IMG/VR virus record: IMGVR_UViG_3300040801_003053
Span: 6,977 to 70,976 of that record
Length of the DNA stretch: 64,000 nt
Origin: a virus
Direction: 5' to 3' (one strand)
In this document: positions 7,942-63,767 of the stretch, piece after piece
How positions within the stretch are numbered: the stretch's first letter is position 1
Layout of the letters: each line of letters opens with the position of its first letter
Notes under the pieces: generated by a model
Told to the model about the DNA's origin: nothing
The model's database searches: none
What the model saw: only the letters and a program-made list of their open reading frames with translations
Made by a program: the position numbers and the translations under genes

Positions 7942-9609
7942 ATGTCGCAAATTTTTAGAGAATTAGGAGAGCGGTACAACCCGCAAATTCATACTGAGGA
8001 TCTTTCATTGACCATCAATATGAATAAAAATTTCGCAGTTAAGGAGAAATCCTTTGAACTGTTTGCCAACAAGAACAAGTTCATCTCGTTCTTGTACGCC
8101 ACTGGACGAATCAACATGGGGGCCAAGCAAGGAAAAGTTATGGCCGCTTCCGGAGAGATCTCCGATAACGCTTACCGTGTGCAGTACCAGGGCAGTTTGT
8201 TTATCCCTGCTTATGCAACGGGTGATGCTCATTTCGGTATTGTATTTGCCGGAAATGACATGACAGGAAATGGCATTACATATGAAGTTGCTGTTGGAGA
8301 TGCTGACGGAGTGGTTCATAACGTGGTAGGATCAATTGCTGTGAAGCATGACCCTGCATCAAACGTGTTTGGAGAGAAATTCAATGAGGGTGATGTAATC
8401 ATCTTGGGTGCCTACGAGGGGGCGCATTTCATTGTAATGGGAACACCTCGAAAAGCAAGCACCAACGACCACTATATCGTCAATGTGAAGTGTCAAACGC
8501 CAACAGGCTTCTTTGCTGAAGCAGATCTGGCTGACGGAGAACTTCTCTCAGAAGGTGGTAACAGGTTTGGTGAAGGATCTCAAAGAGGTTACCAAAGAGA
8601 AAGAAGGACTAAATGGAAAATCAATTACTCTTTCATTTCTCGTTCCACTTTGACCATCACCGGTTCAGCATTATCTCAAAAGAAAGTCGTTTGGCTTCGC
8701 AACACTGACACAGGCGCGAGAATGTGGGAGTGGGAAGCTGTACTCGATCTGAGAGAGCGTCATGCAACCTACCTGGAGCTTGGATGTCGCTATTCAAGAA
8801 CGTCCATGGATGCTTCAAGTCACAAATGGTTTGAGGACTACGGTACCAACCTGTTGACCCTTGATGGGTTTACAGCCGATTACGGTATTGTTGCCCCAGT
8901 CATCGGTGACGGATGGGTATCTCAGCTGGATGATGTCTTTACAGTGACTTACAACCCGAATAACGATTTCCCAATCGCTCTGCTCGAGTTGTTCATGACT
9001 GTTTTGGCTCAACGCTCACCTGCCGGCCCGACCGGAAATACCTTTGTGGGTATTGGTGACAAATTGGGTCACATCAAGATTGATCAAGGATTCAAACGTC
9101 TTGTTGGATGGAACTCTACCGAGGGAGGTACTGTTCTTGGAGCTACGCAGACTGTGTTCAACTACCGTACAGGTAAAGAGCACTCTCTTGGTTTCTCAAT
9201 CAACAAGTACAATTACCTGGGGAACACATTCATTTTCATTGAAGATGACTTGATGAACAACCCAGCGTTTGTTCCGCAAAACGGTGGTATCATCGGTACT
9301 GGTACAATCTACGTGCTTAACGCCTCTATGGTTAACGGTGTTTCCAACATCGACCTTTTGGCCCGTACAGGACGAGCACTCAGAGCCAAGTACATCGATG
9401 GTATGCATTCACTTGACAAAAACAGAGACGGCTCTTCAGTAGCTGCCACTGGATTTGACGGTGGACGCTATGACTTGCTCAGCGAGTACATGCCAATTAT
9501 CTACTCTACAGAGAGCTGTGGAAAGATCAAGGCAAGTGCTAAGTTTGCTGGAGGCGCATTGTCTGGCGAACCTGTTGCAAGTGAAAACGTAACCACTTGG
9601 CACTACTAA
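7942..9609 (+). CDS. Major capsid protein (HK97 fold, crAss-like)
   Basis: 555 aa, follows scaffold and is followed by a strong terminator; C-terminal DG-x2-YDLLSE...ESCGKI resembles crAss-like MCP ends. Confidence 0.8.
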   Translation: MSQIFRELGERYNPQIHTEDLSLTINMNKNFAVKEKSFELFANKNKFISFLYATGRINMGAKQGKVMAASGEISDNAYRVQYQGSLFIPAYATGDAHFGIVFAGNDMTGNGITYEVAVGDADGVVHNVVGSIAVKHDPASNVFGEKFNEGDVIILGAYEGAHFIVMGTPRKASTNDHYIVNVKCQTPTGFFAEADLADGELLSEGGNRFGEGSQRGYQRERRTKWKINYSFISRSTLTITGSALSQKKVVWLRNTDTGARMWEWEAVLDLRERHATYLELGCRYSRTSMDASSHKWFEDYGTNLLTLDGFTADYGIVAPVIGDGWVSQLDDVFTVTYNPNNDFPIALLELFMTVLAQRSPAGPTGNTFVGIGDKLGHIKIDQGFKRLVGWNSTEGGTVLGATQTVFNYRTGKEHSLGFSINKYNYLGNTFIFIEDDLMNNPAFVPQNGGIIGTGTIYVLNASMVNGVSNIDLLARTGRALRAKYIDGMHSLDKNRDGSSVAATGFDGGRYDLLSEYMPIIYSTESCGKIKASAKFAGGALSGEPVASENVTTWHY

Positions 9610-9637
9610 GATGGTAAGCCTTATATACCAATCACCA

Positions 9638-9678
9638 GAGTACACCAGCCCTTCGGGGTTGGTGTATTCTATTTTTTT
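9638..9678 (+). terminator. Strong intrinsic terminator after MCP
   Basis: 14-bp stem GAGTACACCAGCCC/GGGTTGGTGTATTC closed by a C(UUCG)G tetraloop, then T7. Confidence 0.85.
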
Positions 9679-9698
9679 AACTTAAATCAGTAGATAAA

Positions 9699-10553
9699 AT
9701 GAAAACAGAAGCAGTAAAAGAAAAGAAACTGGGTCAAGACTGGCTGCCCGACCTCGAGGGGGTATGGGAACTGAGATACCAGAAAAAGAAGCCAACAAAC
9801 GTATTTGGAGGACAGACATTGGGCCCGTATGAGAATCCAAGAAACGGTAAGACAATAGAGAGGCGCAATGCTGATGGCAAGGTAATGCCTTATCTCTTCA
9901 TTGAAAGTGAAAGAACCAAATTCTTCCCGGACAATAATATTCAACACAAGCTGGACATTCAGTGGTTGATCCACAATCCAGAAATCACGGTTGAATATTA
10001 CGATCATGTTCCCGATGCTTACAAGGCAATCAAAAAGCCTGGGCCATGGAGGCTTGTGAACCTCAACTTCCAAGATCAAAGAAAGATCGACGAAGACGAT
10101 TACATTGACAAGTTGGTGGGCAGAATTTCATTTGACAGCGGCACAAGTGCCTTGTCATTACATAATTTGAGAGTCATCCTTGCGGAGCTGGGTAAAACTT
10201 ATCGTGACAGGCGATTTGTTTCCAACCCGGTAACCGAGCGCAAGGCCCTGAGAAAAACACTCAAAAATTATGTTCGTGCCGACATTGAAAACGCACGACA
10301 AGTCAATGAAATGATCACCGAGATTGACAAATACGCAAACTCCTTTATCCTCAAAGAAATGAAGCGACTGCGTATTATTGCCAAAAATCCGAATGGCATC
10401 TACAAGTTCAGAAACATTCCTTTGGCAACCGGAGACATAGGGATCCTTAGACATTGGGATGATGAGCCTCAGATCAAAGAGGAAATGATGGATGCACTTT
10501 CCAAAGCTCAAGAGGAAGAGCAAAAGGAAATTGAACGAAGCACGAAAAAGTAA
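9699..10553 (+). CDS. Conserved crAss-like post-MCP structural protein
   Basis: 284 aa, syntenic position right after MCP (inference). Confidence 0.5.
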   Translation: MKTEAVKEKKLGQDWLPDLEGVWELRYQKKKPTNVFGGQTLGPYENPRNGKTIERRNADGKVMPYLFIESERTKFFPDNNIQHKLDIQWLIHNPEITVEYYDHVPDAYKAIKKPGPWRLVNLNFQDQRKIDEDDYIDKLVGRISFDSGTSALSLHNLRVILAELGKTYRDRRFVSNPVTERKALRKTLKNYVRADIENARQVNEMITEIDKYANSFILKEMKRLRIIAKNPNGIYKFRNIPLATGDIGILRHWDDEPQIKEEMMDALSKAQEEEQKEIERSTKK

Positions 10554-52250: not shown

Positions 52251-52615
52251 AACTACCAGAAGGATTTGCAAGTTGGGTTAACACGATTTTATTGATTGCC
52301 GGCTTGGCTGGCTTTGCCTATGAATGGGGTGGAGTAAAACAACTTCTCTTTGACAATTATGAGCAAAAGTATGAAGTGACCAAGCACGTCATTGTTGCGG
52401 ACACAATTTTAAATCATGTCGATAAAGCCATAGAGGCAAAGTCAAAGAATGAAATGCACGCAATGGAATCTCGTAGAATGAGAGATTCATTACTCAAGGC
52501 ACAAGCGGATGTAAGCCTCCGCAATGCTATCCAAATTGAGAAGCTTATTAAAAACCAGGACTCCGTCATGGTATGGTGGAGAAAGTATAATCAATCCGCA
52601 AATGATGGAAACTAA
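52247..52615 (+). CDS. Holin-like / lysis membrane protein
   Basis: ATG 52247 (ATGA overlap); single N-terminal TM followed by a coiled coil. Confidence 0.5.
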   Translation: MKLPEGFASWVNTILLIAGLAGFAYEWGGVKQLLFDNYEQKYEVTKHVIVADTILNHVDKAIEAKSKNEMHAMESRRMRDSLLKAQADVSLRNAIQIEKLIKNQDSVMVWWRKYNQSANDGN

Positions 52616-53183
52616 ACTCAAAACAAAGAAAAAACAAACCATTGCCCTAGTTCTCTACGGCATCATTGTTACCGCGATCCTTATCTTTTTCATCGCTCAG
52701 GGGCCTGAAATCGTCAAAGTGGACACAACCCATTGGGAAAAAGAGATCGACTCTCTCAATCGGGTTATTAAGCTCAAGCAGGTAGAGTTTGACCAACTGG
52801 AAGATGACAAGCAGATAATCATTGAAATGCAGGAGACGCATGAGAAAAAAAGTGATAGCCTACTTGCTGTTATCCGATCCTTGCCGGCCAATACCCCTTG
52901 CGAACATGAATTAAAACTTGTCAAGCTGGAACGCAACCAGATTGCAAGTGCTTATGCAAAATGCAAGGAATCGCAATCCGTTACCAGAGTCCAGATAAAA
53001 GCCTGTACAGAGATTATAAACTCTCAAAACGTTAAGCATATCAGTTCAGCTGAAATGAACGCTGCGCTTGTCAGAAGTGCTGAGCGAAGAGCAGAAGAAG
53101 CAGGGAAGAAAGGATTTCTTAAAGGCCTAGGAATTGGATCCGGTGGAACAGCAGTCATTGTACTTATTCTACTGTTGCTATAA
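52602..53183 (+). CDS. Spanin-like protein
   Basis: N-terminal TM, long coiled coil, C-terminal TM; last gene of the lysis cassette. Confidence 0.5.
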   Translation: MMETKLKTKKKQTIALVLYGIIVTAILIFFIAQGPEIVKVDTTHWEKEIDSLNRVIKLKQVEFDQLEDDKQIIIEMQETHEKKSDSLLAVIRSLPANTPCEHELKLVKLERNQIASAYAKCKESQSVTRVQIKACTEIINSQNVKHISSAEMNAALVRSAERRAEEAGKKGFLKGLGIGSGGTAVIVLILLLL

Positions 53184-53213
53184 AAAAAGCCCCCTGTGTG
53201 GGCAGGGAGCTTT
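53182..53213 (-). terminator. Intrinsic terminator of the - strand arm
   Basis: Minus strand reads AGCTCCCTG-CCCACA-CAGGGGGCT then T-tract; the stem is perfect only on this strand (U-G pair). Confidence 0.8.
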
Positions 53214-53258
53214 CATCGCTTAAAAACTAATTTATGATAACAAAATTACTCTTATGAG
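53182..53258 (-). ncRNA. Candidate ~77-nt small RNA antisense to translation-initiation regions
   Basis: Bounded by a TATATTTG promoter element (53263-53270) and the terminator; contains CATAAATTAGTTTTTAAG, complementary to the Ubl start region. Confidence 0.5.
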
Positions 53259-53262
53259 AACT

Positions 53263-53276
53263 CAAATATAATCAAA
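53263..53276 (-). promoter_or_regulatory. Bacteroidota -7 promoter element (TTTGATTATATTTG)
   Basis: TAnnTTTG; an identical 14-mer occurs at 60096-60109. Confidence 0.55.
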
Positions 53277-53616
53277 ACATTGGACCGCTTAATCCTTCAA
53301 GCGGATTTTTTTTAACATCCTCCTTTGTTTTTTCTACCAAAACCTTCTTTTTTTCAGGTCGCTTAATGAGTCCCGTTTCATAGATTCTTTTGTAAAATAA
53401 CCTGTACGCTATAAGGTGCGCATGACCCAATTGGTTTTTGGTGATTTCTTCTCCAAAATTGACATACTCTTTTTCTCCTTTATAAGTTCCAAACAATCTT
53501 AAGCCCTTGTCCTTATCCAGCTCAGCCTGGACAACCAATTGCAATTCATTCAGGCAATAGCTGAATAAGGCAAGATCTTTTTTTGAAAACTTATAATTAA
53601 ACTTTAGTTGGCTCAT
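53272..53616 (-). CDS. Hypothetical protein (114 aa)
   Basis: ATG 53616 (MSQLKF) preferred to the track start. Confidence 0.55.
   Translation of the reverse strand: MSQLKFNYKFSKKDLALFSYCLNELQLVVQAELDKDKGLRLFGTYKGEKEYVNFGEEITKNQLGHAHLIAYRLFYKRIYETGLIKRPEKKKVLVEKTKEDVKKNPLEGLSGPMF
53285..53313 (+). terminator. Intrinsic terminator of the + strand lysis transcript
   Basis: CCGCTT-AATCCTTC-AAGCGG followed by A and T8. Confidence 0.65.
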
Positions 53617-54061
53617 CAAGTGCAAAAAGCATATTGTTGATTGATCTATCTGTTTCCAGTTTAAATTTCCGGAAAACAAGATCTGTTTCACATAAATTCT
53701 CAACCGTTTTACAATTATGAATAACAGCTGCATGGTCATAATTATAGTAACAGCCAATGGTTTCCAGGCTCATACCTGATGTATATTTCTTTGCATAGAA
53801 ATAAAATAAGGCTCTGGCCCATACATGCTCTCTTACTCTGCTTTTCATAGACAAAGTATCCCGATCCAAATTGGTTACTTTCTCCATAGCGTAATGAATA
53901 TTGTCAAGCTTTAACTCAGCGCGGGTAAGCCGACGCAAATCCTTGATCATCTTTCGTTGTTTTTTCCAGAGCATATACTCTTCTTTGTTGATTTTAACTT
54001 CAAGAAATAAAAGATGCTCTTTTTCTGTTTTATCCGATAAGTCAATATTTGTAATTATCAT
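53597..54061 (-). CDS. Protein with DnaA C-terminal (domain IV) helix-turn-helix
   Basis: SRVREHVWARALF...SLETIG...DHAAVIH...D-x2-F matches the Bac_DnaA_C pattern. Confidence 0.75.
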   Translation of the reverse strand: MIITNIDLSDKTEKEHLLFLEVKINKEEYMLWKKQRKMIKDLRRLTRAELKLDNIHYAMEKVTNLDRDTLSMKSRVREHVWARALFYFYAKKYTSGMSLETIGCYYNYDHAAVIHNCKTVENLCETDLVFRKFKLETDRSINNMLFALDEPTKV

Positions 54062-54714
54062 TCTGTTTGTTTTAAGTGATTGATTTTCTCTTTTTGCTGT
54101 TGCACAAACTGGTCCAACGATCTTGTTTCAAAATTGATTTTCCTTAACTGTCGGCCTCCATCGGTAAAGTAATATCTCTGAGGAACAAAAGTGGTAATGA
54201 ACTTTGAACTCTTTGCACCGCCGCCGGCCGCCGGCACAGGAATAAACTTTTCAATGTAAATCCCTTGATTCTGCCACAACAATCTTTGCTTGTAAACAAA
54301 GGTGTAAGCTGACGATACTTTGCCCCCACGTTGCCTTACATTTGATCCTGGCTTTGTATCCATCCGGGTAATGATCTCTCCTTGATCATTCCTTTGTGCA
54401 TAGAAATGAGGAACGCCATAAGGCAAAGGCTTTGGATCATGAGCAGAGATTTCGTCAAAAAATATGTGTCTGGCTTTCTCTTCCCAATAGATAATAAAAT
54501 CATAGGTATAATTTAGCTCAGGAAACAAATTGAAGTCCTCTGGCACATTATCCAAACGTTTGTAATGTTTCATACGTTCATAAGGAATTGCGTCTGCGAC
54601 AACGAGTGTTTCAGGTTCTCGTATAAAACTTCTGATCCACCCTTTGTTTTGAAGCTCCGTCCAATACCATCGCGTGTACATTTCAAATGTATTCTCTGTG
54701 GTGCTTTTTGCCAT
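54058..54714 (-). CDS. PD-(D/E)xK nuclease (DUF1064-like, possible resolvase)
   Basis: YTYDF...MDTKP...F-x2-KQRLLW-x3-GIY; ATG 54714. Confidence 0.55.
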   Translation of the reverse strand: MAKSTTENTFEMYTRWYWTELQNKGWIRSFIREPETLVVADAIPYERMKHYKRLDNVPEDFNLFPELNYTYDFIIYWEEKARHIFFDEISAHDPKPLPYGVPHFYAQRNDQGEIITRMDTKPGSNVRQRGGKVSSAYTFVYKQRLLWQNQGIYIEKFIPVPAAGGGAKSSKFITTFVPQRYYFTDGGRQLRKINFETRSLDQFVQQQKEKINHLKQTE

Positions 54715-54728
54715 ATTTAAAAAAATAT

Positions 54729-54784
54729 GCCCCGCTTTGTTGCCAAACAAATCATGTTAATAATAATTACCATGAACGCGGGGC
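54729..54784 (-). promoter_or_regulatory. Three-way-junction structure with U-tract in the nuclease leader
   Basis: 7-bp, 9/10-bp and 6-bp stems; see finding. Confidence 0.55.
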
Positions 54785-54792
54785 TGATTAAA

Positions 54793-55584
54793 CTATTTGT
54801 ATTTTAAATCTGATGAGGGCTTGAACAGGTTTGGATCACCTTCAACATCGGAAACCTCGTCAATAGCCTCTACCGTATAACTCGGTCGAGTACGGGAAAT
54901 ATCCCCTTTGACATAAGCCTCCATCTGTAATGACTTGAACAATTCCTGGCTGGCATCATAATCACTTGCCAACAGGCCAAAGATCATTTTGTTTTTACCG
55001 AAAGTGAATCGTTGCATTTTATCATTTCCAAAATGTTCAACAAGCAAAACATCGTTTTTGACCGTTGTTCCGAAAATTGCCTGAATGATTTTAATCATAT
55101 TCCATGGCAAAGTTGACGTTTTTACAGCAAGCTCTTCTTTGGCAACATACTCTTTCAGGTAATTTTCGTAATGCTCCATAGCATCCCTTTCCTGGTTATC
55201 ATGGTTCCAGAAAGGGGCCACGTAAAACAGATCCTTTTTGATGCCTCGAGAATTAATCTCAATGTAGGATTTACCTTGAACATGATCGATGACTTCCATA
55301 TCGGTTGCCTTGACAAGCTCCTCCCAAAATTTAGGAGTGACAAAGCGCCCATCCAAATATTCAAGAACATCCAAACGCTTATGAAGATAATAATCCATTT
55401 CTTCCTCTTCATCATTGTTGCGTTGTATTTCAAACAACATTTTCAAATTGACTCCGACAATACTTTGAAGATCGGTTACGAAAGCATGATAATTGCTGAC
55501 ATAAATGTAGTCGCTAAAGAATATGGTGTCGACACCCAGCTTGGTTGTGCCTTTCTGCATATTCGGGAATTTAATTACACTCAT
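54793..55584 (-). CDS. Hypothetical protein (263 aa)
   Basis: Long ORF in the coupled operon. Confidence 0.6.
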   Translation of the reverse strand: MSVIKFPNMQKGTTKLGVDTIFFSDYIYVSNYHAFVTDLQSIVGVNLKMLFEIQRNNDEEEEMDYYLHKRLDVLEYLDGRFVTPKFWEELVKATDMEVIDHVQGKSYIEINSRGIKKDLFYVAPFWNHDNQERDAMEHYENYLKEYVAKEELAVKTSTLPWNMIKIIQAIFGTTVKNDVLLVEHFGNDKMQRFTFGKNKMIFGLLASDYDASQELFKSLQMEAYVKGDISRTRPSYTVEAIDEVSDVEGDPNLFKPSSDLKYK

Positions 55585-55850
55585 TTTTTAAGATTTAAAG
55601 ATTGAACAATTTCTCGCAAGAAGTCTTCCCAACGGGCAAATTCTTTGGCGTACCCATTAAGATCGACTGTTTTATTGCTACTACGTTTTAAGGTAGAGAT
55701 CCTCCAAAGGGCATTTTCAACTTTTGAGAAGTACCCTTCATTGGTGAAAGTTTCTTCTCCTTTTTTACTCTTGCCTCTGCGTTGTACCGTAAAATTGCGT
55801 TCGTCAATATAGATACGGTACGGTTCTAATAATTTGTCTTCGATAATCAT
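55581..55850 (-). CDS. Small phage protein (DUF5405-like)
   Basis: ATG 55850 by ATGA overlap; YRIYIDERNFTV...GYFSKVENAL pattern. Confidence 0.45.
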   Translation of the reverse strand: MIIEDKLLEPYRIYIDERNFTVQRRGKSKKGEETFTNEGYFSKVENALWRISTLKRSSNKTVDLNGYAKEFARWEDFLREIVQSLNLKK

Positions 55851-56908
55851 TTTACTACAATATGTTTTGAAAGGTTTGTTACTACTTGATTCATCCACTT
55901 GCCAAGACCGGCATATGCGGCCACAAGTTTAGGATCATTAAAAGTGTACTTCTCGGTGATTTCAATAAGCCCTTGAATCAGACCTTCAAGCTGTACCTGA
56001 TCGTTGTCTGGCTTTGCTTGTTTACGCTTTTCCAGAATGGTACTCATCACATCAGGCTTTTGTTGAAGCTCGGGAGTGTTTTTGACTATTTCCTCGCGAT
56101 TCTTTTGAATACGCTCTTGAAACGTCAACTCTTTCTCTTCAATCTCTTTTTGATTTTGAGCAATGCGCTCTTCGAGTTTCTTCTGTTTTTCTTCTTCTAA
56201 GGCTCTTTCAGTGGCTCTGTTGGCTTTTGCCAATTCTGTCAGCTTCTCGAGCCTTTGAGCAAACAAGTCATCGCTAAGCTCATGTATCATACTTTCACGA
56301 TCATACCCCAGTTCTTTGATCTCTTTCTCGTATGCCGACAATGTGAGATCGCGAACATCAGCGCGCTTGCGAAGCCTTTCAGCTTCTTTTTCTTTGTTAG
56401 CTCTTGCCTCAGCTGCCAACTGCATATCCTCCAAAAAGCCTTTCCAGTCCACTGGAGAGTATTTTGTGTAATCGGAATGTGTTGACCCTGGACGGAGATA
56501 AGGATTGATCTCAGACTCTCTAAAAGATTGAAGTTTTGCAAGACGCTCCTCTTCAATCTTTTTAGCATGATCTTCAATCTTTTTCAGCTTTCCTTCAACT
56601 TCCTGGCTTACGTCACGTTGAGCCTTACGGAAAGCGTCAATGTACTTTTTCTTCTCAAAGTATGGAGCTGCCAATTTTTTATGCAACTTATCCGTTGCTG
56701 TACGGATCTCCACAAACTTCAATCGTAAAGCTTTTGCTTCCTTGCTGGCTTCAGGATTTTCAGGGTCAAGGGTTAATACTTGCTCAAATTTTGGCTTGAG
56801 TTCTTTCATCAATTTTACAGATTCTCCAAACTCAGATTGAATTTCATGAGCAAATTCTTCTGTTACTGCGTAATCTTTGATAGGGACGATTAATGCTTCT
56901 GTTTTCAT
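55847..56908 (-). CDS. Coiled-coil recombination-module protein (DUF1351-like)
   Basis: AKALRLKFVEIR...IDAF...E-x2-LK-x-IE pattern; located next to the exonuclease. Confidence 0.45.
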   Translation of the reverse strand: MKTEALIVPIKDYAVTEEFAHEIQSEFGESVKLMKELKPKFEQVLTLDPENPEASKEAKALRLKFVEIRTATDKLHKKLAAPYFEKKKYIDAFRKAQRDVSQEVEGKLKKIEDHAKKIEEERLAKLQSFRESEINPYLRPGSTHSDYTKYSPVDWKGFLEDMQLAAEARANKEKEAERLRKRADVRDLTLSAYEKEIKELGYDRESMIHELSDDLFAQRLEKLTELAKANRATERALEEEKQKKLEERIAQNQKEIEEKELTFQERIQKNREEIVKNTPELQQKPDVMSTILEKRKQAKPDNDQVQLEGLIQGLIEITEKYTFNDPKLVAAYAGLGKWMNQVVTNLSKHIVVK

Positions 56909-56910
56909 TA

Positions 56911-57747
56911 TCAAATGTTTTTAAGGGTGTTTATTAAAGTGAATGCTTCTGCGTATTTTTCTTTGAACCAATCTCCGCGAGGAATAAGCAATCGAACTAA
57001 CGAATACATTTCATTGAATGTATCCAGTCCTACACGAGGACCAAGCTTGTCAATGTAAATCTCGAGAGCTTTTTCAAGATGAAGATGTACAGGCAAAGTA
57101 TCAAAATCTTTTTCATAAGCTTTGATTCCATAACGAAAAAGTCCAGGTATTCCGTCTGTAGGATCTCCAATCATGACTTGCTTGATGAGATTCCTCATAC
57201 CTTGCTCTTGCGTAATTAAGGAAAAAGACTCACTTGGAAAATCCCAATGCGTACCTGGTATCTGCTTTAAGTCTTTATCCTTAGAATAAATGAATGTTGA
57301 TTCATCTTGCAACATGGCGCATATATCATCTGCTTCCAATTCCGGAAACAGAAGATTATGCAGGCCTATACCTTCTTGAGCAAAGATGTATTCCACAACA
57401 CTTATCATATCCTTGAACATATCTGCGTATTCAGGTTCTTTATACTTTCGTTTGAACTTGTAACCTTTCTCTTGACAGATATAATTTCTGAATGTCTTAT
57501 GACGGCCTCCTGACCAGCAAAAGATTTTTGCTTTACAATCTACGCCGACAAGTATTTCGTCCAACATAGCTTGTGTTTCAGTCTGTATAGCTTCAATAGG
57601 TGTTGGGGAAGCATAAGTCGGTCGTGCATAATTTTGATGTATGCGATAAACAACAACGTTTTTAATGAAGTCTGCGTCAATAAGGGCGATTTTATTTGTG
57701 CTCTGCACGCCCTGTTGTTTTGGTTGAAATCTGAAATCGTTACTCAT
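56911..57747 (-). CDS. 5'-3' exonuclease (T7 gp6/T5-type FEN fold)
   Basis: LIDAD, GYKFKR, ELEADD, SKDKDLKQIPG, GDPTDGIPG. Confidence 0.85.
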   Translation of the reverse strand: MSNDFRFQPKQQGVQSTNKIALIDADFIKNVVVYRIHQNYARPTYASPTPIEAIQTETQAMLDEILVGVDCKAKIFCWSGGRHKTFRNYICQEKGYKFKRKYKEPEYADMFKDMISVVEYIFAQEGIGLHNLLFPELEADDICAMLQDESTFIYSKDKDLKQIPGTHWDFPSESFSLITQEQGMRNLIKQVMIGDPTDGIPGLFRYGIKAYEKDFDTLPVHLHLEKALEIYIDKLGPRVGLDTFNEMYSLVRLLIPRGDWFKEKYAEAFTLINTLKNI

Positions 57748-57943
57748 TTTGTTTCCATGCTGTGATCATCATTTTGATCGTTAATATTATGCCGATAGGA
57801 CCCAATGCCATATCGACGGCTAATACCCACCAGGGCATTTCTGGAGTTTTTACTGTTTCTTTAACTCCATAGATTTGCGTTGCATATTTGTGGTAAAGGT
57901 GAACCGCTATTCCACAAGCGATCCATAAGATGAAGTATATCAT
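57740..57943 (-). CDS. Small membrane protein
   Basis: Two hydrophobic stretches. Confidence 0.55.
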   Translation of the reverse strand: MIYFILWIACGIAVHLYHKYATQIYGVKETVKTPEMPWWVLAVDMALGPIGIILTIKMMITAWKQNE

Positions 57944-58128
57944 ATATCGTTATTAAAAGTTTTGATCTCATTACTGTCCTCTTTGTCCTTTTCTTCGGTT
58001 GCAAAAAACAAAGCCAAAAAGGCTAATGCTGTGATCGTTTGCAAGGTCTTTATTTCAATTCTATTACGACTCCAGATCCTTGCTATCTGGGAGAGCGCAA
58101 TCACTACTTTGACATTTCTAAGCAACAT
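57940..58128 (-). CDS. Small hypothetical membrane protein
   Basis: One hydrophobic stretch; overlaps its neighbours. Confidence 0.45.
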   Translation of the reverse strand: MLLRNVKVVIALSQIARIWSRNRIEIKTLQTITALAFLALFFATEEKDKEDSNEIKTFNNDI

Positions 58129-58531
58129 TTAATATTGTTTTGCCTTGTTCATTCTTTGTAAGATTAAGTTGCAAATCAAAGTCATCATTAAAACGCATGA
58201 TTGACTGATCAATGAAGTCGCTGAATTCCTTGGTGGAATATTCAGCAAAATCCTTGAACACATAACCTTGATCTGTTACTTTGAGTAAGCGAATATCGGT
58301 CAGATGACTAAGCACCTCTCTGACGCTGCTTCCTGTCGTGTCAGCCACTTTCTCCAATATCATGTAGAAAAGCTTGACTTGACCTTCAGAAGCGTCCCTG
58401 GTGGCTTGTTTGATCTCTATCTGAAATCGCTTATGAGTATTTTCGCACTTCTGCACGAACATCCTATAACTATCTTTATAGGCTGATGAGGGAACGAACT
58501 CCCCTGCAATGAATTTACCTTCAAATAACAT
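58118..58531 (-). CDS. NinB-like recombination protein
   Basis: Q-x-KLFY...TG-x-SVREV...YSTKEFSDFID pattern. Confidence 0.6.
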   Translation of the reverse strand: MLFEGKFIAGEFVPSSAYKDSYRMFVQKCENTHKRFQIEIKQATRDASEGQVKLFYMILEKVADTTGSSVREVLSHLTDIRLLKVTDQGYVFKDFAEYSTKEFSDFIDQSIMRFNDDFDLQLNLTKNEQGKTILNVA

Positions 58532-58533
58532 AT

Positions 58534-58562
58534 AAAAAAAGGGGCCTCGTTAAAGACCCCTT
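58534..58562 (-). terminator. Intrinsic terminator after the SSB-like gene
   Basis: GGGGTCTT-TAAC-GAGGCCCC then T7 on the minus strand. Confidence 0.75.
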
Positions 58563-58572
58563 GAATTAAATT

Positions 58573-59364
58573 CTACATGAATGATCCGGGGCTTGGAATA
58601 TTGCCTGCCCCCTCTGTCAGGTCATTGCCTCCTCCCAATGGATTCGTAGGCGCTTCCTCTTTGGGTGCCTGCGGAGCCTCTTCAGTTTCCTCTGGCTTCA
58701 AGTAAGGTTTTCCTCCAGCTTCAAGAAACGCTCTACCCTCTTTGGAATCGAGAATTTGCTCTCTAAGTCCTTTTCGATCAGGATTCGGTGATGGTTTAAA
58801 TTCACCGAATAAAGGGCTTTTAAAGCACTCTCCTGCATCGTCAATAGCAAAACCGTACACGTCGTTCTTTGGAACTGCCTGATCCCATGGAACACCTTTG
58901 TACATGGCATTGTTTTGAAGTTCGGGAGTAACCATGATTGCACTGTTGACATTTTCCCAAACTCCGTTACCATCAGATTTCTGAGTATGGCCTACCTGAA
59001 CAATAAACTTCTTGCCTAGGAATTGTCCAATGTCAAAAGTTGAATACTCACTTTTGTTGAGTTTCCTTCCAATAGCTCCGGTGATGAATTTGTGCAACAA
59101 ACTGTTATCGCTGATAATGTTGTTGTACTTAGCCCATAACCATGCTGGCTTTTCTTCTTCACCGTCGTTATACTGGTGCAATTCAAATGGCAATTCAAAA
59201 ACAAATTTGAGTTGAGGTTTCCAACCTTCTCCATAAGCGTTTTTGACATATTGGCTTCCCATATCAATGATACGGACGAGGATGGCTACATGAGGCCCTG
59301 CTGAAATTACGGGTCGACTTACTGAGGTTCCTCCTCTGGCTTTCATACTAAATGATTGTGACAT
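58573..59364 (-). CDS. Single-stranded DNA-binding protein-like (phage OB fold)
   Basis: AGPH-x-A...IIDMG-x-Q...FELP...FDI-x2-FLGK pattern; acidic/Pro-rich tail; own terminator. Confidence 0.55.
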   Translation of the reverse strand: MSQSFSMKARGGTSVSRPVISAGPHVAILVRIIDMGSQYVKNAYGEGWKPQLKFVFELPFELHQYNDGEEEKPAWLWAKYNNIISDNSLLHKFITGAIGRKLNKSEYSTFDIGQFLGKKFIVQVGHTQKSDGNGVWENVNSAIMVTPELQNNAMYKGVPWDQAVPKNDVYGFAIDDAGECFKSPLFGEFKPSPNPDRKGLREQILDSKEGRAFLEAGGKPYLKPEETEEAPQAPKEEAPTNPLGGGNDLTEGAGNIPSPGSFM

Positions 59365-59375
59365 AATGTTTGTGT

Positions 59376-59795
59376 TTAATTTGTGAATAATTTAAAAAAC
59401 TTGTGAAAATACTTTTTTGATTTACTGTGATAGTTCTGTCCAAAACGAATGTCTATATCGAACATGTTGTAAATCTTAACGCGTTTTACTTTTTGTTTGG
59501 GTATTAATGAATTCTGCTTGTTTATCTCATAGGCTACATGTGTAAAATAATCGGTTAATATATCGGTAACTACTTCTTCGCTAAAGCCAACCGATTCAGA
59601 GACTTCCTGAATGTGTATTTTAAATCGTGGATGATTAAATACATTTTCATTCAGAAAATCTCTAGCCTCGGAAGGGGAACAAAAATCTAATTTTGAGTTG
59701 TCTCGTACAATACTCTCATAGGGTGAGAGCTTTAAATGATCGAAAAAGGGATTAAATTCTTTTTCGTATTTATTCTTTTTGACTTGATCCATCAT
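59376..59795 (-). CDS. Protein with C-terminal HU/IHF-like fold
   Basis: IQEVSESVGFSEEVVTDILTDYF...RVKIYNMFDI; ATG 59795. Confidence 0.45.
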   Translation of the reverse strand: MMDQVKKNKYEKEFNPFFDHLKLSPYESIVRDNSKLDFCSPSEARDFLNENVFNHPRFKIHIQEVSESVGFSEEVVTDILTDYFTHVAYEINKQNSLIPKQKVKRVKIYNMFDIDIRFGQNYHSKSKKYFHKFFKLFTN

Positions 59796-60078
59796 AAACA
59801 GTTTTTTCTCGAAGCTTACTGGCGAGATTCTGGCTCGGCTTAAAGTAAAGGCGGTAAGATGCCTCTTGCACTTCTTTTTGTCTTGTCGCGATGTTAAACC
59901 TTTCTTGTTTTTTGCTGATACGCAATTCAAACTTCCCCACATTGTTTATAGCAATCTCCTGCCCGAAAAGAATCTTGTCACGCATGGTTTGCTCTACGTG
60001 CATGAGAACTTTTCGGACATTTGATTTTGCTATGCCTGTCTTACTGGATATGTCTTTATCTAAATCTTTAAAATTCAT
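59770..60078 (-). CDS. HU/IHF family DNA-binding protein
   Basis: MNFKDL...I-x-I-x2-VGKF...RFN-x2-T...F-x-PS-x2-L. Confidence 0.85.
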   Translation of the reverse strand: MNFKDLDKDISSKTGIAKSNVRKVLMHVEQTMRDKILFGQEIAINNVGKFELRISKKQERFNIATRQKEVQEASYRLYFKPSQNLASKLREKTVYDGSSQKE

Positions 60079-60095
60079 ACTGGTTATTTTTTAAA

Positions 60096-60127
60096 CAAAT
60101 ATAATCAAATAATCCGTTCACAGCGAA
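60096..60127 (-). promoter_or_regulatory. Bacteroidota-type promoter for the HU operon
   Basis: TTCG-N20-TATATTTG on the minus strand, about 17 nt before ATG 60078. Confidence 0.65.
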
Positions 60128-60134
60128 GAAAATG

Positions 60135-61484
60135 CTAAATTACATAAGAGTAAGGATCGATCGAAAGTGAAATAGGATTTACTTTAAGTGTCGTTCCACC
60201 AACGCCAATGTCACGACCTTTGCCCAAATTGAACTCGACTTTCCACATATCATTAGGCGGTACGCTTGCGTTCGCGCTCTTGAGCGTATAATACGCTTCT
60301 CTGTATGGGAAGAGTACAATGTCTGCATCTTCTTCGATGGAACTACTTTCTTTGAGATCCGATAATCGAGGTCTTTTATTGTCACGCTCTTCAACTTTAC
60401 GACTCAATTGCGACAATGCCATAACAGGTATATTGTTGTCCTTGGCAATGCTTTTCAACTCACGGGTAATATATGTGATCCCCTGCCTTAAATCGTGTCC
60501 AGGATAACTACACCTCTGGATATAATCTACGACGATTAAATCACAAAGCCCTTCCTTCCTCAGCTCTTTCGTTTTGAGAGAAATGTCATCAATATGTTTC
60601 AAATCACCAATAATCGTGAATGAGCTTTGGTCCATTTGTTCAGAAAACTTTGTAACCTTAGCCAATTCTTCTGCCGTTAACTTACCGGATTTAATTTTGT
60701 TGTAATTAACTCCAGTTTCCTTGGCTATGATTTTACTGCGTAATTGAAAGACGGGCATCTCTAAAGAGAAAAAGACAACGGCATGACCTCGCTTGTGGCA
60801 TTCCCATGCCGTAATTAAAGCCACCGTTGTTTTAAGCATACCTGGTCGGCCTGCAACAATAATAAGCTCACCGAATTGCATACCTCCTTGTAGAAGTTGA
60901 TCAAATTCGAGAGATCCTGTTGGCAATGCAGTATGTTCTCCGGACAGATGCTTTTTATAACGATCCGTAATTTGAGCAACATAGTCTTTTTCAGAATTGT
61001 TTTGAATGTCTTTTGTAAATCGATCAATGAGTTTTTTATACCCCCTCAGAATATTATCTGACACGGTAAAAACATCCATTCCTTTCCAATCAATAGCTTG
61101 GATTTTGGAACTTACATCTACCCAATGTCTGATAATAACAAACTCTTTAAACTTCAAGATATGATGCTCCAAATGTGCTGTTGTAGCAACAAATTGAGTC
61201 AGATCTACAAGCTTAAATTGCCATTGGCCTGCCAGCCAATCAGGCAATGCCTGGGGTTTAAATTCATTCACCGAAACAATATCAACCTTGACTCCTGCTT
61301 CATAGCATTTGAGAATACTGGTAAATACAAAACGGTGAAACATATCGGAAAAGTCTTTGGCTTCTATGTTGTGACGAAGGACGAGAGCTTTAACCTCGTC
61401 CCTGTCATCAACAAGAAGTGATCCAATGATTGACTTCTCCAGATTATGCATAAACTCATGATCATAATCTGCGATATAATTCAT
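60135..61484 (-). CDS. dnaB: Replicative DNA helicase (DnaB family)
   Basis: N-terminal DnaB domain, FSLEMP, IVVDYIQ, ALSQLSR, SDLKESSSIEEDAD, KGR finger; variant P-loop GRPGMLKT. Confidence 0.9.
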   Translation of the reverse strand: MNYIADYDHEFMHNLEKSIIGSLLVDDRDEVKALVLRHNIEAKDFSDMFHRFVFTSILKCYEAGVKVDIVSVNEFKPQALPDWLAGQWQFKLVDLTQFVATTAHLEHHILKFKEFVIIRHWVDVSSKIQAIDWKGMDVFTVSDNILRGYKKLIDRFTKDIQNNSEKDYVAQITDRYKKHLSGEHTALPTGSLEFDQLLQGGMQFGELIIVAGRPGMLKTTVALITAWECHKRGHAVVFFSLEMPVFQLRSKIIAKETGVNYNKIKSGKLTAEELAKVTKFSEQMDQSSFTIIGDLKHIDDISLKTKELRKEGLCDLIVVDYIQRCSYPGHDLRQGITYITRELKSIAKDNNIPVMALSQLSRKVEERDNKRPRLSDLKESSSIEEDADIVLFPYREAYYTLKSANASVPPNDMWKVEFNLGKGRDIGVGGTTLKVNPISLSIDPYSYVI

Positions 61485-61500
61485 GGAAGTAATTTAAAAA

Positions 61501-61707
61501 TTATCCTTTTGTGCCCACTTTACTATTAAAAGAATAAATAGCTTTATCGTCTGCAATCTCTGGGCCTGTGATTGTCGCGTTGACCAATTCAGGATATTCC
61601 TCTGAATAAAAGTCAGCTACTTGCTTGGGTGATAACTCAGTATTCGGATCCGTCAATTCTTTGTTTCGGAATTTGAATACTCGGGTATGCATAATTACGT
61701 TTGACAT
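61501..61707 (-). CDS. Ubiquitin-like protein, PRTRC system protein C type
   Basis: L-x-DPN-x-ELSP-x-QV-x-DFYS-x2-YPEL-x-NA-x-I-x-GPE...VGTKG with terminal Gly. Confidence 0.85.
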   Translation of the reverse strand: MSNVIMHTRVFKFRNKELTDPNTELSPKQVADFYSEEYPELVNATITGPEIADDKAIYSFNSKVGTKG

Positions 61708-61717
61708 AAATTAGTTT

Positions 61718-62788
61718 TTAAGAGTTAAACATGTCGATTTGATCCTCGTCAGGATCGCTGAAAGCGTTTTTAGCTGCGCTTGCCCAGTCTTGAGGATCCG
61801 GAGCGGGAATACCCTCTAACGGGTTTTCTTTCTTCTCTGTTTCCACTTCTGGACTTGTAGGTAAATTATAAGGAAAAGCATCTTCTTCTGGTTTTTCAGG
61901 TTCTTTCTTGCTTGGGCATCCCGGGAGTTGACAGAAATCAGCATTGTGCCACTTCAAATCTTTGTCACACATTTTACAGCGATTTTCTGATTCAGGCAAA
62001 TCTACAGCTTTTGGTTTTTCCGGGTCAGTAATGTCTGTAACCTTTATATCAGTTACTTCAGAGACTGGTGACTTGTCACAATTATCGTCAATATTTGTGA
62101 CAGATTCCATTTCCTTGACAATCTCATCATTGTTCTCCAATGACTTTTTGATCTTGTCAGCTGGTGACCCACTATGCGGTTGCTCAACGGATGCCATTTG
62201 TATGGTTTTATCTGTTGCATGATGCTCTTGGAAAGAATCTTTTATCTGCTCTTGCTGTTCAGGACTTATTGGCCCCGGTGTTCCTACAATCAAATTCTCT
62301 TTAGGAATCCCTGATTTTCCAATGATGCTTTCTTTGAGCTTCTCCGTAGAACTCTTAGGAGCCTCTGGAGCCTCTTTTACAGGCTCAGGCTTCTTTTCTT
62401 CCTTTTTTGGAGTATTACTACCTTGGGCGAAGAGATCGTTCTTTGGAGCTTCTTTTTTCTTTACAGGTTTTTTCTTGGCCTGTTTACCTTTCTCATTGCC
62501 TTTCTCTTTTTTCTCTTGCTCAATTTTCTCGAGTTGTTTGTTGATGAATTCAATTTGATTGATTCGATTCTTTTGACTTTTGTATGTAGAATCAAGAATC
62601 TGTTCGAGGTCTTGAGAGCAAGCCTGCAAGGAAGTGTTAATTACCGAAAAAGGAATCAGGCTCCCTGCCTTATCGTCATCCGGATTGATGGACTTCATGA
62701 TCACATCAATACGAAACTTCTCATTTTCCTTTTTGATCCTTAAAGAAACAACGGCAATGGATAAATAATTTTCAATGGATTTTAACAT
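61718..62788 (-). CDS. PRTRC system protein E-like
   Basis: N-terminal domain (...SLIPFSV...SQDL), long Pro/Glu/Lys-rich linker, Cys4 cluster, terminal QIDMF; directly upstream of Ubl as in PRTRC loci. Confidence 0.65.
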   Translation of the reverse strand: MLKSIENYLSIAVVSLRIKKENEKFRIDVIMKSINPDDDKAGSLIPFSVINTSLQACSQDLEQILDSTYKSQKNRINQIEFINKQLEKIEQEKKEKGNEKGKQAKKKPVKKKEAPKNDLFAQGSNTPKKEEKKPEPVKEAPEAPKSSTEKLKESIIGKSGIPKENLIVGTPGPISPEQQEQIKDSFQEHHATDKTIQMASVEQPHSGSPADKIKKSLENNDEIVKEMESVTNIDDNCDKSPVSEVTDIKVTDITDPEKPKAVDLPESENRCKMCDKDLKWHNADFCQLPGCPSKKEPEKPEEDAFPYNLPTSPEVETEKKENPLEGIPAPDPQDWASAAKNAFSDPDEDQIDMFNS

Positions 62789-62824
62789 AAATCTGGTTTT
62801 TAAAAAATGGGATTAAATTTACAA

Positions 62825-63086: not shown

Positions 63087-63767
63087 TTATCGGGTTTTAA
63101 AATTCATTGTTTTTAAGTCAAACCATATTTCCTTGTGAGGTGTTTGACCCTTGATCATGAGTTGTGAGATCATATGAATAACAAGTGATGCCACAATGCG
63201 GTTTACACTAAAAGATTGCTCTTGCAGGCTCTCATAAGCCGAGCAAGAGACTTTCTGATTATCGACAAGGGTAGGGAATTTCTCTATTATCGTCAGTTCT
63301 TCTTGCCCTTTTAAAGCCATACATACTTGACCATAATCTTCTCCATTCCCTGTATCAATCCAATGATTGAAAATACCTTTCCGAAAATCATTGTTTAAGA
63401 CTTTTCTGGTATCAACATTATCAACACATGAGATTAAAAAGTCTGAGGCCGGTCTTTGGTCCACATACATTTCTGCATTGGCTTCAATCTGCGTACCAAA
63501 AGCGTATCCAATACGTTCTGCAAGCACATCAACTTTATAACGACCAATATCGCTTTCCACATAACCTTCTTGCTTGCCGACATTATGAGGCATAATCGTA
63601 TCGTTGTCGTAAACAGATATGTTGAATCCTTTATTGTCAAGCTGAATCCATGATTGCTCAAGCTGTACCAGATCTCGTAAAACTATTGATCCGGTAGCTC
63701 CGGCTCCAATGACTATAAACTTAACGCGGTGACGGTTATCAATTAATCGCTGATTCAGGTATATCAT
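63087..63767 (-). CDS. E1-like ThiF/MoeB enzyme, PRTRC type
   Basis: GAGATG nucleotide-binding loop, D-x-D...N-x-GKQ, K78, CVDN, WID-x-GN...GQV, S-C175-S...EQS-x2-VN. Confidence 0.85.
   Translation of the reverse strand: MIYLNQRLIDNRHRVKFIVIGAGATGSIVLRDLVQLEQSWIQLDNKGFNISVYDNDTIMPHNVGKQEGYVESDIGRYKVDVLAERIGYAFGTQIEANAEMYVDQRPASDFLISCVDNVDTRKVLNNDFRKGIFNHWIDTGNGEDYGQVCMALKGQEELTIIEKFPTLVDNQKVSCSAYESLQEQSFSVNRIVASLVIHMISQLMIKGQTPHKEIWFDLKTMNFKTR

What the first reader, a model, noticed from the sequence alone, without database searches (positions are those of the whole stretch)
53182..53270. Candidate phage sRNA perfectly antisense to the start of the ubiquitin-like gene 8.5 kb away
On the minus strand, a TATATTTG promoter element (53263-53270) and an intrinsic terminator (53182-53213) enclose about 77 nt with no ORF on that strand. 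Its unstructured core CATAAATTAGTTTTTAAG (53219-53236) is an exact 18-nt complement of the Ubl mRNA at 61705-61722, covering the protein E stop codon and the Ubl AUG. It also pairs 8+7+3 nt with the protein E start (62782-62803). A second segment (AAATTACTCTTATGA) pairs about 13/15 with the dnaB start (seen). A rough i.i.d. estimate at about 40% GC gives roughly 1e-3 for such an 18-mer recurrence, but shared A-rich leaders inflate the true chance. Model (inference): an anti-TIR sRNA that switches off the Ubl/replication cassette. On the + strand the same DNA reads as two coupled mini-ORFs (MITKLLL, MRTQI), which is an alternative interpretation.
Basis: partly seen in the sequence, partly recalled or inferred. 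Interest (0 to 1): 0.75.

Follow-up and report, generated by a model that had tools for sequence, protein, structure and literature searches.

The report
Candidate phage antisense RNA against Ubl start
An uncultured crAss-like phage has, between its two converging gene blocks, a promoter-to-terminator stretch of about 75 bases. Its RNA would pair perfectly over 18 bases with the start of the phage's own ubiquitin-like gene, so it is a credible but unproven regulatory small RNA.

Summary
The minus strand at 53219-53236 is an exact 18-nt complement of the mRNA at 61705-61722, which spans the stop of PRTRC protein E and the AUG of the Prok_Ub gene. It is the longest exact repeat in the window.

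An 18-mer repeat somewhere in 64 kb is not rare: 17-25% of Markov simulations have one. Its placement is rare. A match this long between one of only 17 non-coding gaps and a start region has P of about 1e-4 per gap and about 0.006 genome-wide. All other gaps reach 7-13 nt.

The unit has a strong minus-strand intrinsic terminator. It also has a Bacteroidota-type -7 box, TATATTTG, inside a 14-mer identical to this phage's HU-gene promoter. Six relatives also have a TAnnTTTG box upstream of their HU gene.

The claimed second seed against dnaB is at background level.

No RNA data and no close relatives could be obtained. Distant relatives (DnaB 38-53% identical) lack the element.

Best reading, about 0.4: a 3'-end or independent antisense RNA that occludes the Shine-Dalgarno-less Ubl start. 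Near-equal rival: a functionless sequence patch in overlapping 3' UTRs.

It would be a new member of a known kind. The scan's earlier unchecked notes describe similar anti-leader RNAs in other Bacteroidota phages.

The parts
53182..53257 (-). Predicted non-coding RNA of about 72-76 nt. Start inferred 6-7 nt downstream of the -7 box; end in the U-tract.
   Evidence: Promoter box, fold and terminator. The longest ORF on this strand of the unit is one of 12 codons through the terminator (sequence). No Rfam family reaches threshold.
53263..53276 (-). Promoter core TTTGATTATATTTG, containing the Bacteroidota -7 box TAnnTTTG. It overlaps the TGA stop (53274-53272) of the upstream 114-aa gene.
   Evidence: The 14-mer is identical to 60096-60109 upstream of the HU gene. 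TATATTTG occurs 5 times in the genome, 3 of them in non-coding gaps. The site ties for top score with a core-only matrix built from relatives, but ranks only 43-102 of 151,000 when flanks are included.
53241..53248 (-). Second -7-like box, TAATTTTG. If used, it would give a shorter RNA of about 50 nt with the seed at its 5' end.
   Evidence: The use of this box is inference only.
53219..53236 (-). 18-nt seed, CATAAATTAGTTTTTAAG.
   Evidence: Opening energy +3.4 kcal/mol; 18-bp duplex -17.7 kcal/mol.
53182..53213 (-). Intrinsic terminator for minus-strand transcripts. It is shared by the upstream operon and the candidate RNA.
   Evidence: 12-pair hairpin in the MFE fold followed by U7.
61705..61722 (-). 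Target site in the mRNA. It covers the stop codon of PRTRC protein E, a 10-nt spacer and the AUG of the Prok_Ub gene.
   Evidence: Opening energy +4.3 kcal/mol.
62782..62803 (-). Weaker partial site (8+7 nt) at the protein E start.
   Evidence: Duplex -16.0 kcal/mol. Not distinguishable from background rank (about 11th of 86).
53285..53313 (+). Plus-strand terminator (6-bp G+C-rich stem, then T8) lying inside the 3' end of the minus-strand gene. Late transcripts that pass the first hairpin would overlap the whole candidate RNA.
   Evidence: sequence.
60096..60109 (-). HU/IHF-like gene promoter core, the same 14-mer as at 53263-53276.
   Evidence: It is the top hit of a matrix trained only on the six relatives. 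All six relatives have a TAnnTTTG box ending 13-22 nt upstream of their HU ATG.
53272..53616 (-). Last gene of the minus-strand replication block (114 aa, no known family). Its 3' end holds the promoter's upstream part and the + strand terminator.
52524..53183 (+). Last gene of the plus-strand late block (219 aa). Its stop codon abuts the A-run of the minus-strand terminator.

Best explanation
The 88-nt gap between the converging late (+) and replication (-) gene blocks encodes a minus-strand antisense RNA of about 50-76 nt. It would be made either from its own host-RNA-polymerase promoter, whose TAnnTTTG box sits at the stop codon of the last replication-block gene, or as the 3' UTR of that operon. 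Both versions end at the same strong terminator.

Its A/U-rich middle would pair over 18 consecutive bases with the junction between the PRTRC protein E gene and the ubiquitin-like (Prok_Ub) gene, 8.5 kb upstream in the same block. The duplex covers positions -15 to +3 of the Ubl start.

This phage's start regions have no Shine-Dalgarno sequence, which is typical of Bacteroidota, where initiation is tuned by start-region secondary structure and upstream adenines. A duplex there should therefore block initiation of Ubl. It might also create a cleavage site for a double-strand RNase.

Shown: the sequence features and their statistical rarity. Inferred: transcription, pairing in vivo and repression.
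For: - Exact 18-nt complementarity, the longest repeat in the window.
- P of about 1e-4 per gap under Markov models trained on the phage's own start regions, and about 0.006 over all 17 gaps on both strands. Every other gap reaches only 7-13 nt.
- Ubl is an outlier among 86 start regions by duplex energy: -25.1 against -18.6 kcal/mol. Only 1.3% of dinucleotide shuffles reach it.
- The net energy is favourable: -17.7 for the duplex, against +3.4 and +4.3 opening costs.
- The strong terminator is on the correct strand.
- The -7 box sits in a 14-mer identical to the phage's HU promoter. All six relatives have a TAnnTTTG box upstream of HU, and the window's HU site is the top hit of a matrix trained only on those relatives. 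This matches published middle promoters in front of the IHF-like gene of crAss-like phages (10.1101/2020.03.07.982082).
- No Shine-Dalgarno sequences precede the 86 genes. In Bacteroidota, start-region structure tunes initiation (PMC6847099).
- Bacteroides GibS represses by extended A/U-rich pairing across start codons (PMC7366714).
Against: - No transcript evidence of any kind.
- No close relatives exist in any collection searched. The distant relatives that carry Prok_Ub have no comparable element, and the convergent junctions seen in relatives are overlaps, a bare 53-nt terminator or a 125-nt gap.
- The terminator is needed by the operon anyway, so it is not independent evidence.
- With flanks included, the promoter site ranks only 43-102 of 151,000 positions. 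The 14-mer identity alone has P of roughly 0.03-0.1 (my estimate from the gap sizes).
- 18 perfect pairs with sharp edges is more than a seed needs. It would also fit a recent short-patch copy.
- Ribosomes finishing protein E would run into the duplex and could displace it.
- The dnaB seed is at background level.
Confidence: 0.42

Rival explanations
1. No regulatory function. The gap is just the overlapping 3' UTRs of two converging operons, each ending at a terminator that lies beyond the other's. The 18-mer is a chance match or a recent short copied patch, for example filler from a rearrangement that added the three small + genes after the giant ORF. The promoter-like box is fortuitous.
For: - An 18-mer repeat somewhere in the window arises in 17-25% of simulations.
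- The crossed-terminator layout fully explains both hairpins.
- Relatives have no such gap, and the early block abuts or overlaps the giant gene directly. The region is therefore evolutionarily new here.
- The match has sharp edges with random flanks (sequence).
- The same 18-mer serves as an ordinary start region in an unrelated viral contig, so it is a typical leader sequence.
Against: - The placement is improbable: about 0.006 for a match between a gap and a start region, even with models trained on the leaders themselves.
- A second independent exact match, the 14-mer promoter core, falls in the same 88-nt gap in the orientation needed.
Confidence: 0.38
2. The plus strand is the functional one. 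The late-operon 3' UTR carries a copy (not a complement) of the Ubl start region with two coupled mini-ORFs. This copy could be a decoy for a factor that binds the Ubl leader, a sponge for the antisense RNA, or a remnant start of a lost + strand gene.
For: - The + strand reads as a textbook start region of this phage: CTTAAAAAC...ATG, followed by ATGA-coupled mini-ORFs.
- The strong + strand terminator lies downstream at 53285-53313, so late transcripts probably include the copy.
Against: - ORFs of 7 and 5 codons with nothing downstream to regulate.
- No factor that binds this leader is known.
- Identity of 18 nt between two independent start regions is as improbable as in the antisense reading. 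This reading therefore still needs a duplication, and it does not explain the promoter box on the other strand.
Confidence: 0.08
3. A DNA-level element. The two 18-bp copies would be inverted repeats that bound an 8.5-kb invertible or mobile segment, or two sites for one DNA-binding protein.
For: Exact inverted repeats flank 53219-61722. Because the repeat contains the E stop and the Ubl ATG, inversion would keep all reading frames intact (my reasoning from the sequence).
Against: - No serine or tyrosine recombinase in the 75.5-kb genome.
- No target-site duplication.
- The gene order DnaB-HU-...-exonuclease, co-directional with the PRTRC genes, is conserved in relatives. The present orientation is therefore ancestral and the segment is not a mobile unit.
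Confidence: 0.05

Closest known systems
c4 antisense RNA of phages P1 and P7 (Citron & Schuster 1990, as summarised in PMC12197685)
   Same: A phage-encoded small RNA that is not encoded opposite its target. It pairs with complementary stretches around the ribosome-binding region of a phage mRNA and blocks translation of a phage gene.
   Different: c4 lies upstream of its target in the same transcript, is processed out of it, uses two short loop-displayed segments and controls an antirepressor in a temperate phage. Here the RNA lies 8.5 kb downstream, has one 18-nt contiguous match, sits in a crAss-like phage of Bacteroidota without Shine-Dalgarno sequences, and targets a ubiquitin-like gene. 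No sequence or Rfam similarity.
GibS and other trans-encoded sRNAs of Bacteroides thetaiotaomicron (PMC7366714)
   Same: Bacteroidota setting: a TAnnTTTG promoter, an intrinsic terminator, an A/U-rich RNA and extended pairing across the start codon of an SD-less mRNA.
   Different: GibS is chromosomal, conserved, experimentally validated and uses imperfect pairing through its 5' end. This candidate is phage-borne, unvalidated, unconserved and perfectly complementary.
3' UTR-derived sRNAs with an internal promoter (class definition in PMC7366714; DapZ and MicL of enterobacteria from my own knowledge)
   Same: The promoter overlaps the 3' end of the upstream coding gene and the terminator is shared with the parent mRNA.
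   Different: Those sRNAs act on unlinked host mRNAs with help from Hfq. Here the target is in the same phage gene block, and Bacteroidota lack Hfq (my own knowledge).
Lambda OOP RNA (77 nt, cis-antisense; PMC12197685)
   Same: A short promoter-to-terminator phage RNA of the same size, lying where opposing transcription overlaps. It would be fully complementary to the 3' end of the converging late transcript.
   Different: OOP acts on the gene it overlaps (cII). The distinctive feature here is a distant, trans target.

Membership tests
Trans-encoded, start-region-occluding base-pairing sRNA | Own transcription start or promoter | tested here: inconclusive
   Perfect TAnnTTTG box within a 14-mer identical to the phage's HU promoter, whose box is present in six relatives. 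The score is weaker once flanks are included. Promoter activity cannot be tested here.
Trans-encoded, start-region-occluding base-pairing sRNA | Intrinsic terminator at the 3' end and no coding potential | tested here: met
   12-pair hairpin plus U7. The longest ORF on this strand is a 12-codon one through the terminator.
Trans-encoded, start-region-occluding base-pairing sRNA | Complementarity to a target start region beyond chance | tested here: met
   18/18 nt. P about 1e-4 per gap and about 0.006 genome-wide. Energy outlier among 86 start regions.
Trans-encoded, start-region-occluding base-pairing sRNA | A discrete transcript exists | not testable with these tools
   No RNA holder was listed, and the contigs laid do not cover 53000-54985.
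Trans-encoded, start-region-occluding base-pairing sRNA | Seed and target conserved or co-varying in relatives | tested here: inconclusive
   The nearest relatives have DnaB only 38-53% identical. Those with Prok_Ub show at most 10-11-nt matches to their own Ub start. No close relatives in any collection.
3' UTR-derived sRNA with internal promoter | Promoter in or at the 3' end of the upstream ORF; terminator shared with the parent mRNA | tested here: met
   In sequence only: the 14-mer covers the TGA at 53274-53272, and there is a single terminator at 53213-53182.
Any described RNA family (Rfam 15) | Match at the gathering score | tested here: not met
   No hit in the window at gathering score. 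The sub-threshold hits are driven by the terminator only.
Invertible DNA segment | Site-specific recombinase encoded by the element | tested here: not met
   PF00239 and PF00589 are absent from the 75.5-kb genome, with positive controls working.
P1/P7 c4 RNA family | Sequence and structure homology (Rfam C4), and location upstream of the target in the same transcript | tested here: not met
   No Rfam match. The unit lies 8.5 kb downstream of its target. It may work like c4 but is not a member.

The most novel reading that the evidence does not exclude
A three-stage RNA timer in a crAss-like phage.

1. Early transcripts make the PRTRC ubiquitin-like system and DnaB.
2. At the middle stage, host RNA polymerase fires two identical promoters. 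One drives the HU operon. The other drives a small RNA that shuts off Ubl translation, and weakly that of protein E and other CTTAAAAA-leader genes.
3. Late in infection, the converging late-operon transcript, whose 3' UTR carries an exact mimic of the Ubl start region, duplexes with the RNA and removes it.

This would be the first RNA-based temporal switch in crAss-like phages and the first known regulator of a phage ubiquitin-like cassette.
Probability: 0.1. Interest if true: 0.7.

Novelty: new member of a known kind. Interest (0 to 1): 0.4.

Why it matters
Regulatory RNAs of phages that infect Bacteroidota, including the very abundant crAss-like group, are essentially undescribed. A 2025 review of phage small RNAs mentions neither group. 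The only hint for crAss-like phages is abundant non-coding transcripts of unknown role in phi14:2.

A phage RNA that blocks an SD-less start region would show how translation can be switched off in these hosts. It would also give a handle on when the untested PRTRC ubiquitin-like cassette is needed during infection.

The value is limited because the phage is uncultured, its host is unknown and the element is so far unique to one genome.

Tried and rejected
- **Close relatives for covariation.** All of these searches gave nothing useful:
  - Megablast of 5 kb against phage records: no match.
  - DnaB against viral contigs: none.
  - The 219-aa protein against metagenome contigs: none.
  - Protein E against 5.8 billion proteins: itself only.
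  - The DnaA_C-domain protein: one 98% variant on a 1150-nt contig that stops 125 nt short of the region.
  - Exact-protein look-ups of both flanking genes: not on record.
  - The terminator 22-mer in viral and metagenome contigs: none.
- **Expression.** No RNA holder was listed. The three runs laid (one DNA, two small metatranscriptomes of the same mat sample) gave no cover of 53000-54985. This is no evidence either way.
- **dnaB second seed.** Rejected as background.
- **Inverted, internally deleted copy of the Ubl-dnaB junction.** I considered whether the gap could be one (18-mer, then GATAA, then a dnaB-like leader). The second segment is not significant, so I do not claim it.
- **Invertible segment or transposon.** Rejected: no recombinase, no target duplication and a conserved gene order.
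- **Assembly artefact.** Unlikely. 18 nt is shorter than the k-mers assemblers usually use (my own knowledge), and relatives share the overall layout.
- **Multi-target anti-leader model.** Only 8-9-nt A/U-rich matches to three to five other leaders. TTAAAAA is simply among the three commonest leader 7-mers.
- **Position matrix from relatives' HU promoters.** It recovers the HU site as the top hit but does not single out the candidate's promoter once flanks are included.

Full report
**Setting.** The window is bases 6977-70976 of a 75.5-kb viral record estimated 95% complete. The only DNA holder listed is a microbial-mat metagenome, and it holds a small share of the stretch.

The genome has a 53-kb plus-strand late block. 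That block ends with a 3761-aa giant ORF and three small genes. A minus-strand replication block converges on it. The replication block encodes:
- a ThiF-like E1 (63087-63767);
PF19556 PRTRC_E was not found for it; it is on record for the gene in the equivalent position in relatives L005 and L008;
- a 68-aa Prok_Ub protein (61501-61707, PF14454, E 7e-24);
- DnaB (60135-61484);
- an HU/IHF-like protein (59770-60078);
- a DnaA_C helix-turn-helix protein (53597-54061);
- a final 114-aa gene (53272-53616).

None of the 86 called genes has a Shine-Dalgarno sequence; their leaders are A/T-rich. Together with the TAnnTTTG promoter boxes described below, this points to a Bacteroidota host. That agrees with earlier notes on this genome and with what is published for the phylum (PMC6847099).

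**The observation.**
- The gap 53184-53271 separates the stop of the last late gene (TAA, 53181-53183) from the stop of the last replication gene (TGA, 53274-53272).
- On the minus strand it reads, in order: TTTGATTATATTTG (53276-53263); about 25 nt; the 18-mer CATAAATTAGTTTTTAAG (53236-53219); then a hairpin (53213-53186, 12 pairs in the MFE fold) followed by seven U.
- The 87-nt fold is -24.1 kcal/mol, z = -3.4.
- The 18-mer is the exact complement of the mRNA at 61722-61705: the TAA stop of protein E, ten bases of spacer and the Ubl AUG.
- It is the longest exact repeat of either orientation in the window and has no third copy in the genome.

**Is it more than chance?** There are two answers.
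- An exact repeat of 18 nt or more somewhere in a 64-kb sequence of this composition appears in 17-25% of order-1 to order-5 Markov simulations.
- The placement is unusual. The genome has only 17 non-coding gaps of 30 nt or more, 1652 nt in all.
  - I generated 58-nt sequences from Markov chains trained on the phage's own start regions, which keeps shared leader motifs such as TTAAAAAC. A match of 18 nt or more to any of the 86 start regions occurs in 0.5-1.5 per 10,000. That is about 0.006 over all gaps and both strands.
  - Every other gap has a best antisense match of 7-13 nt.
  - Among 3655 pairs of real start regions, only one pair shares more than 14 nt, and those belong to adjacent small genes in a run of three with near-identical leaders.
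  - By duplex energy, the Ubl start scores -25.1 kcal/mol against -18.6 for the next best and a mean of -10.8. Only 1.3% of dinucleotide shuffles of the RNA reach -25.1 against any start region.
That is real but moderate.

**The other pairings.**
- The 8+7 pairing with the protein E start exists (-16.0 kcal/mol). It is a by-product of E and Ubl having similar leaders, and it ranks about 11th of 86.
- The dnaB pairing is at background level. In an ATG-anchored comparison, four start regions tie at 12 of 18.
- The 3' half of the seed is antisense to CTTAAAAA(C). That motif also lies in the leaders of three to five other replication-block genes. But TTAAAAA is among the three commonest leader 7-mers overall.
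- I therefore treat Ubl as the only supported target.

**Promoter.**
- TAnnTTTG is not enriched genome-wide: 67 occurrences against about 65 expected from base composition (the expectation is my arithmetic).
- The strict form TATATTTG occurs five times, three of them in gaps: upstream of a 370-aa late gene, upstream of HU, and here.
- The HU site and the candidate's site share an exact 14-mer on the same strand.
- In all six relatives fetched, the HU gene is preceded by a TAnnTTTG box ending 13-22 nt before its ATG. A matrix trained only on those relatives picks the window's HU site as the top hit of 151,000 positions.
- This fits the report that middle and late genes of crAss-like phages are read by host RNA polymerase, from promoters found notably in front of the IHF-like gene (10.1101/2020.03.07.982082).
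- The candidate's site ties for top with a core-only matrix. It falls to rank 43-102 when flanks are included, because the A-rich stretch after the box is missing.
- So a promoter is plausible, not established.
- A second box, TAATTTTG (53248-53241), could give a shorter RNA with the seed at its 5' end.
- Even without a dedicated promoter, the same antisense sequence would sit in the 3' UTR of the replication operon.

**Layout on both strands.**
- The minus-strand terminator's U-tract abuts the late gene's stop codon.
- The best plus-strand terminator (53285-53304 plus T8) lies inside the 3' end of the minus-strand gene.
- On the plus strand the first hairpin is followed only by TTTC. Late transcripts probably run through to 53313 and would then be fully complementary to the candidate RNA.
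With nothing downstream to control, I rate a coding or leader role as unlikely.

**Energetics.** The 18-bp duplex is worth -17.7 kcal/mol. Opening the seed, which is partly held in a weak A-U hairpin, costs 3.4. Opening the target costs 4.3. The net value of about -10 kcal/mol is, to my own knowledge, in the range of working sRNA-mRNA pairs. Bacteroides sRNAs are reported to be A/U-rich and possibly in need of extended seeds (PMC7366714).

**Relatives.**
- DnaB homologues at 38-53% identity lie on contigs of about 75-80 kb. They share the layout: PRTRC genes, DnaB, HU, a 5'-3' exonuclease, then convergence on a giant ORF of about 4100-4200 aa.
- Their convergent junctions are gene overlaps, a bare 53-nt bidirectional terminator or, in L007 (which has no Prok_Ub), a 125-nt gap.
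- The three relatives with Prok_Ub have at most 10-11-nt matches to their own Ub start.
- The element is therefore not a family feature. At this distance that neither supports nor refutes it.
- No closer relative was found by any route.
- No RNA holder was listed, and the laid contigs do not cover the region.

**Alternatives.**
- An invertible or mobile segment is unlikely. The genome has no serine or tyrosine recombinase, there is no target duplication, and the gene order is conserved.
- The main rival is that the 18-mer is a functionless patch or coincidence in overlapping 3' UTRs.
  - In its favour: the gap is evolutionarily new, the match has sharp edges, and the 18-mer is a typical leader that also serves as a start region in an unrelated viral contig.
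  - Against it: two independent exact matches, the promoter core and the anti-start seed, fall in the right order and orientation within one 88-nt gap that ends in a terminator.

**Verdict.** My estimates are:
- about 0.42 for a functional antisense RNA (a free-standing sRNA or an operon 3' UTR) that occludes the Ubl start;
- 0.38 for no function;
- the remainder for plus-strand or DNA-level roles.

It works like P1/P7 c4 and like Bacteroides GibS but belongs to no described family. It would be a new member of a known kind. Earlier, unchecked notes of this scan describe anti-leader small RNAs in other Bacteroidota phages. None resembles this one in sequence.

Noticed in passing
window 60079-60134; L003:2804-2859, L004:11368-11568, L005:12648-12814, L006:11395-11435, L007:11368-11425, L008:11410-11466: The HU/IHF-like gene is preceded in all seven phages by a TAnnTTTG box (TATATTTG in five) ending 13-22 nt before the ATG. 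This looks like a conserved host-polymerase promoter marking the start of a middle transcription unit right after dnaB.
   Followed up: partly
genome bases about 350-840 (window coordinates -6626 to -6140, outside the window): Three consecutive small genes (63, 47 and 50 aa) have near-identical leaders of the form AACCAACTAAACAATAAGTG-ATG, sharing up to 19 nt. This is a second case of repeated start regions in this phage.
   Followed up: no
L005:3545-4830 and 8325-9747; L006:5912-6118 and 8558-10004; L008:4819-6002 and 8592-10011: Relatives carry the same PRTRC-type set (PRTRC_E on record in L005 and L008, Prok_Ub, Prok-E2_D, ThiF) upstream of DnaB, but split into two groups several kb apart. 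In the window the set is compacted so that Ubl sits directly before dnaB.
   Followed up: no
L004:3074-4027, L006:3097-4101, L007:1330-2283, L008:6614-7591: Four relatives encode a protein of about 320 aa with a Gad2 (PF26128) hit in their early region. To my knowledge that family was named for a phage inhibitor of the Gabija defence system. I did not check whether the window's phage has one.
   Followed up: no
window 58532-58572: A G+C-rich hairpin followed by a T-run lies inside the replication block, just upstream of the 137-aa gene. It is a likely internal terminator or attenuator that would split the block's transcripts.
   Followed up: no
L009:1016-1033 (IMGVR_UViG_2600255085_000015): The exact 18-mer CTTAAAAACTAATTTATG occurs once in 2.9 million viral contigs, again as a start region with its ATG opening an ORF. 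This shows that it is a typical SD-less leader sequence.
   Followed up: partly
window 53305-53313 relative to 53263-53276: The T8 run of the plus-strand terminator reads as an A8 tract about 30-40 nt upstream of the candidate minus-strand promoter box. It might double as an upstream promoter element.
   Followed up: no
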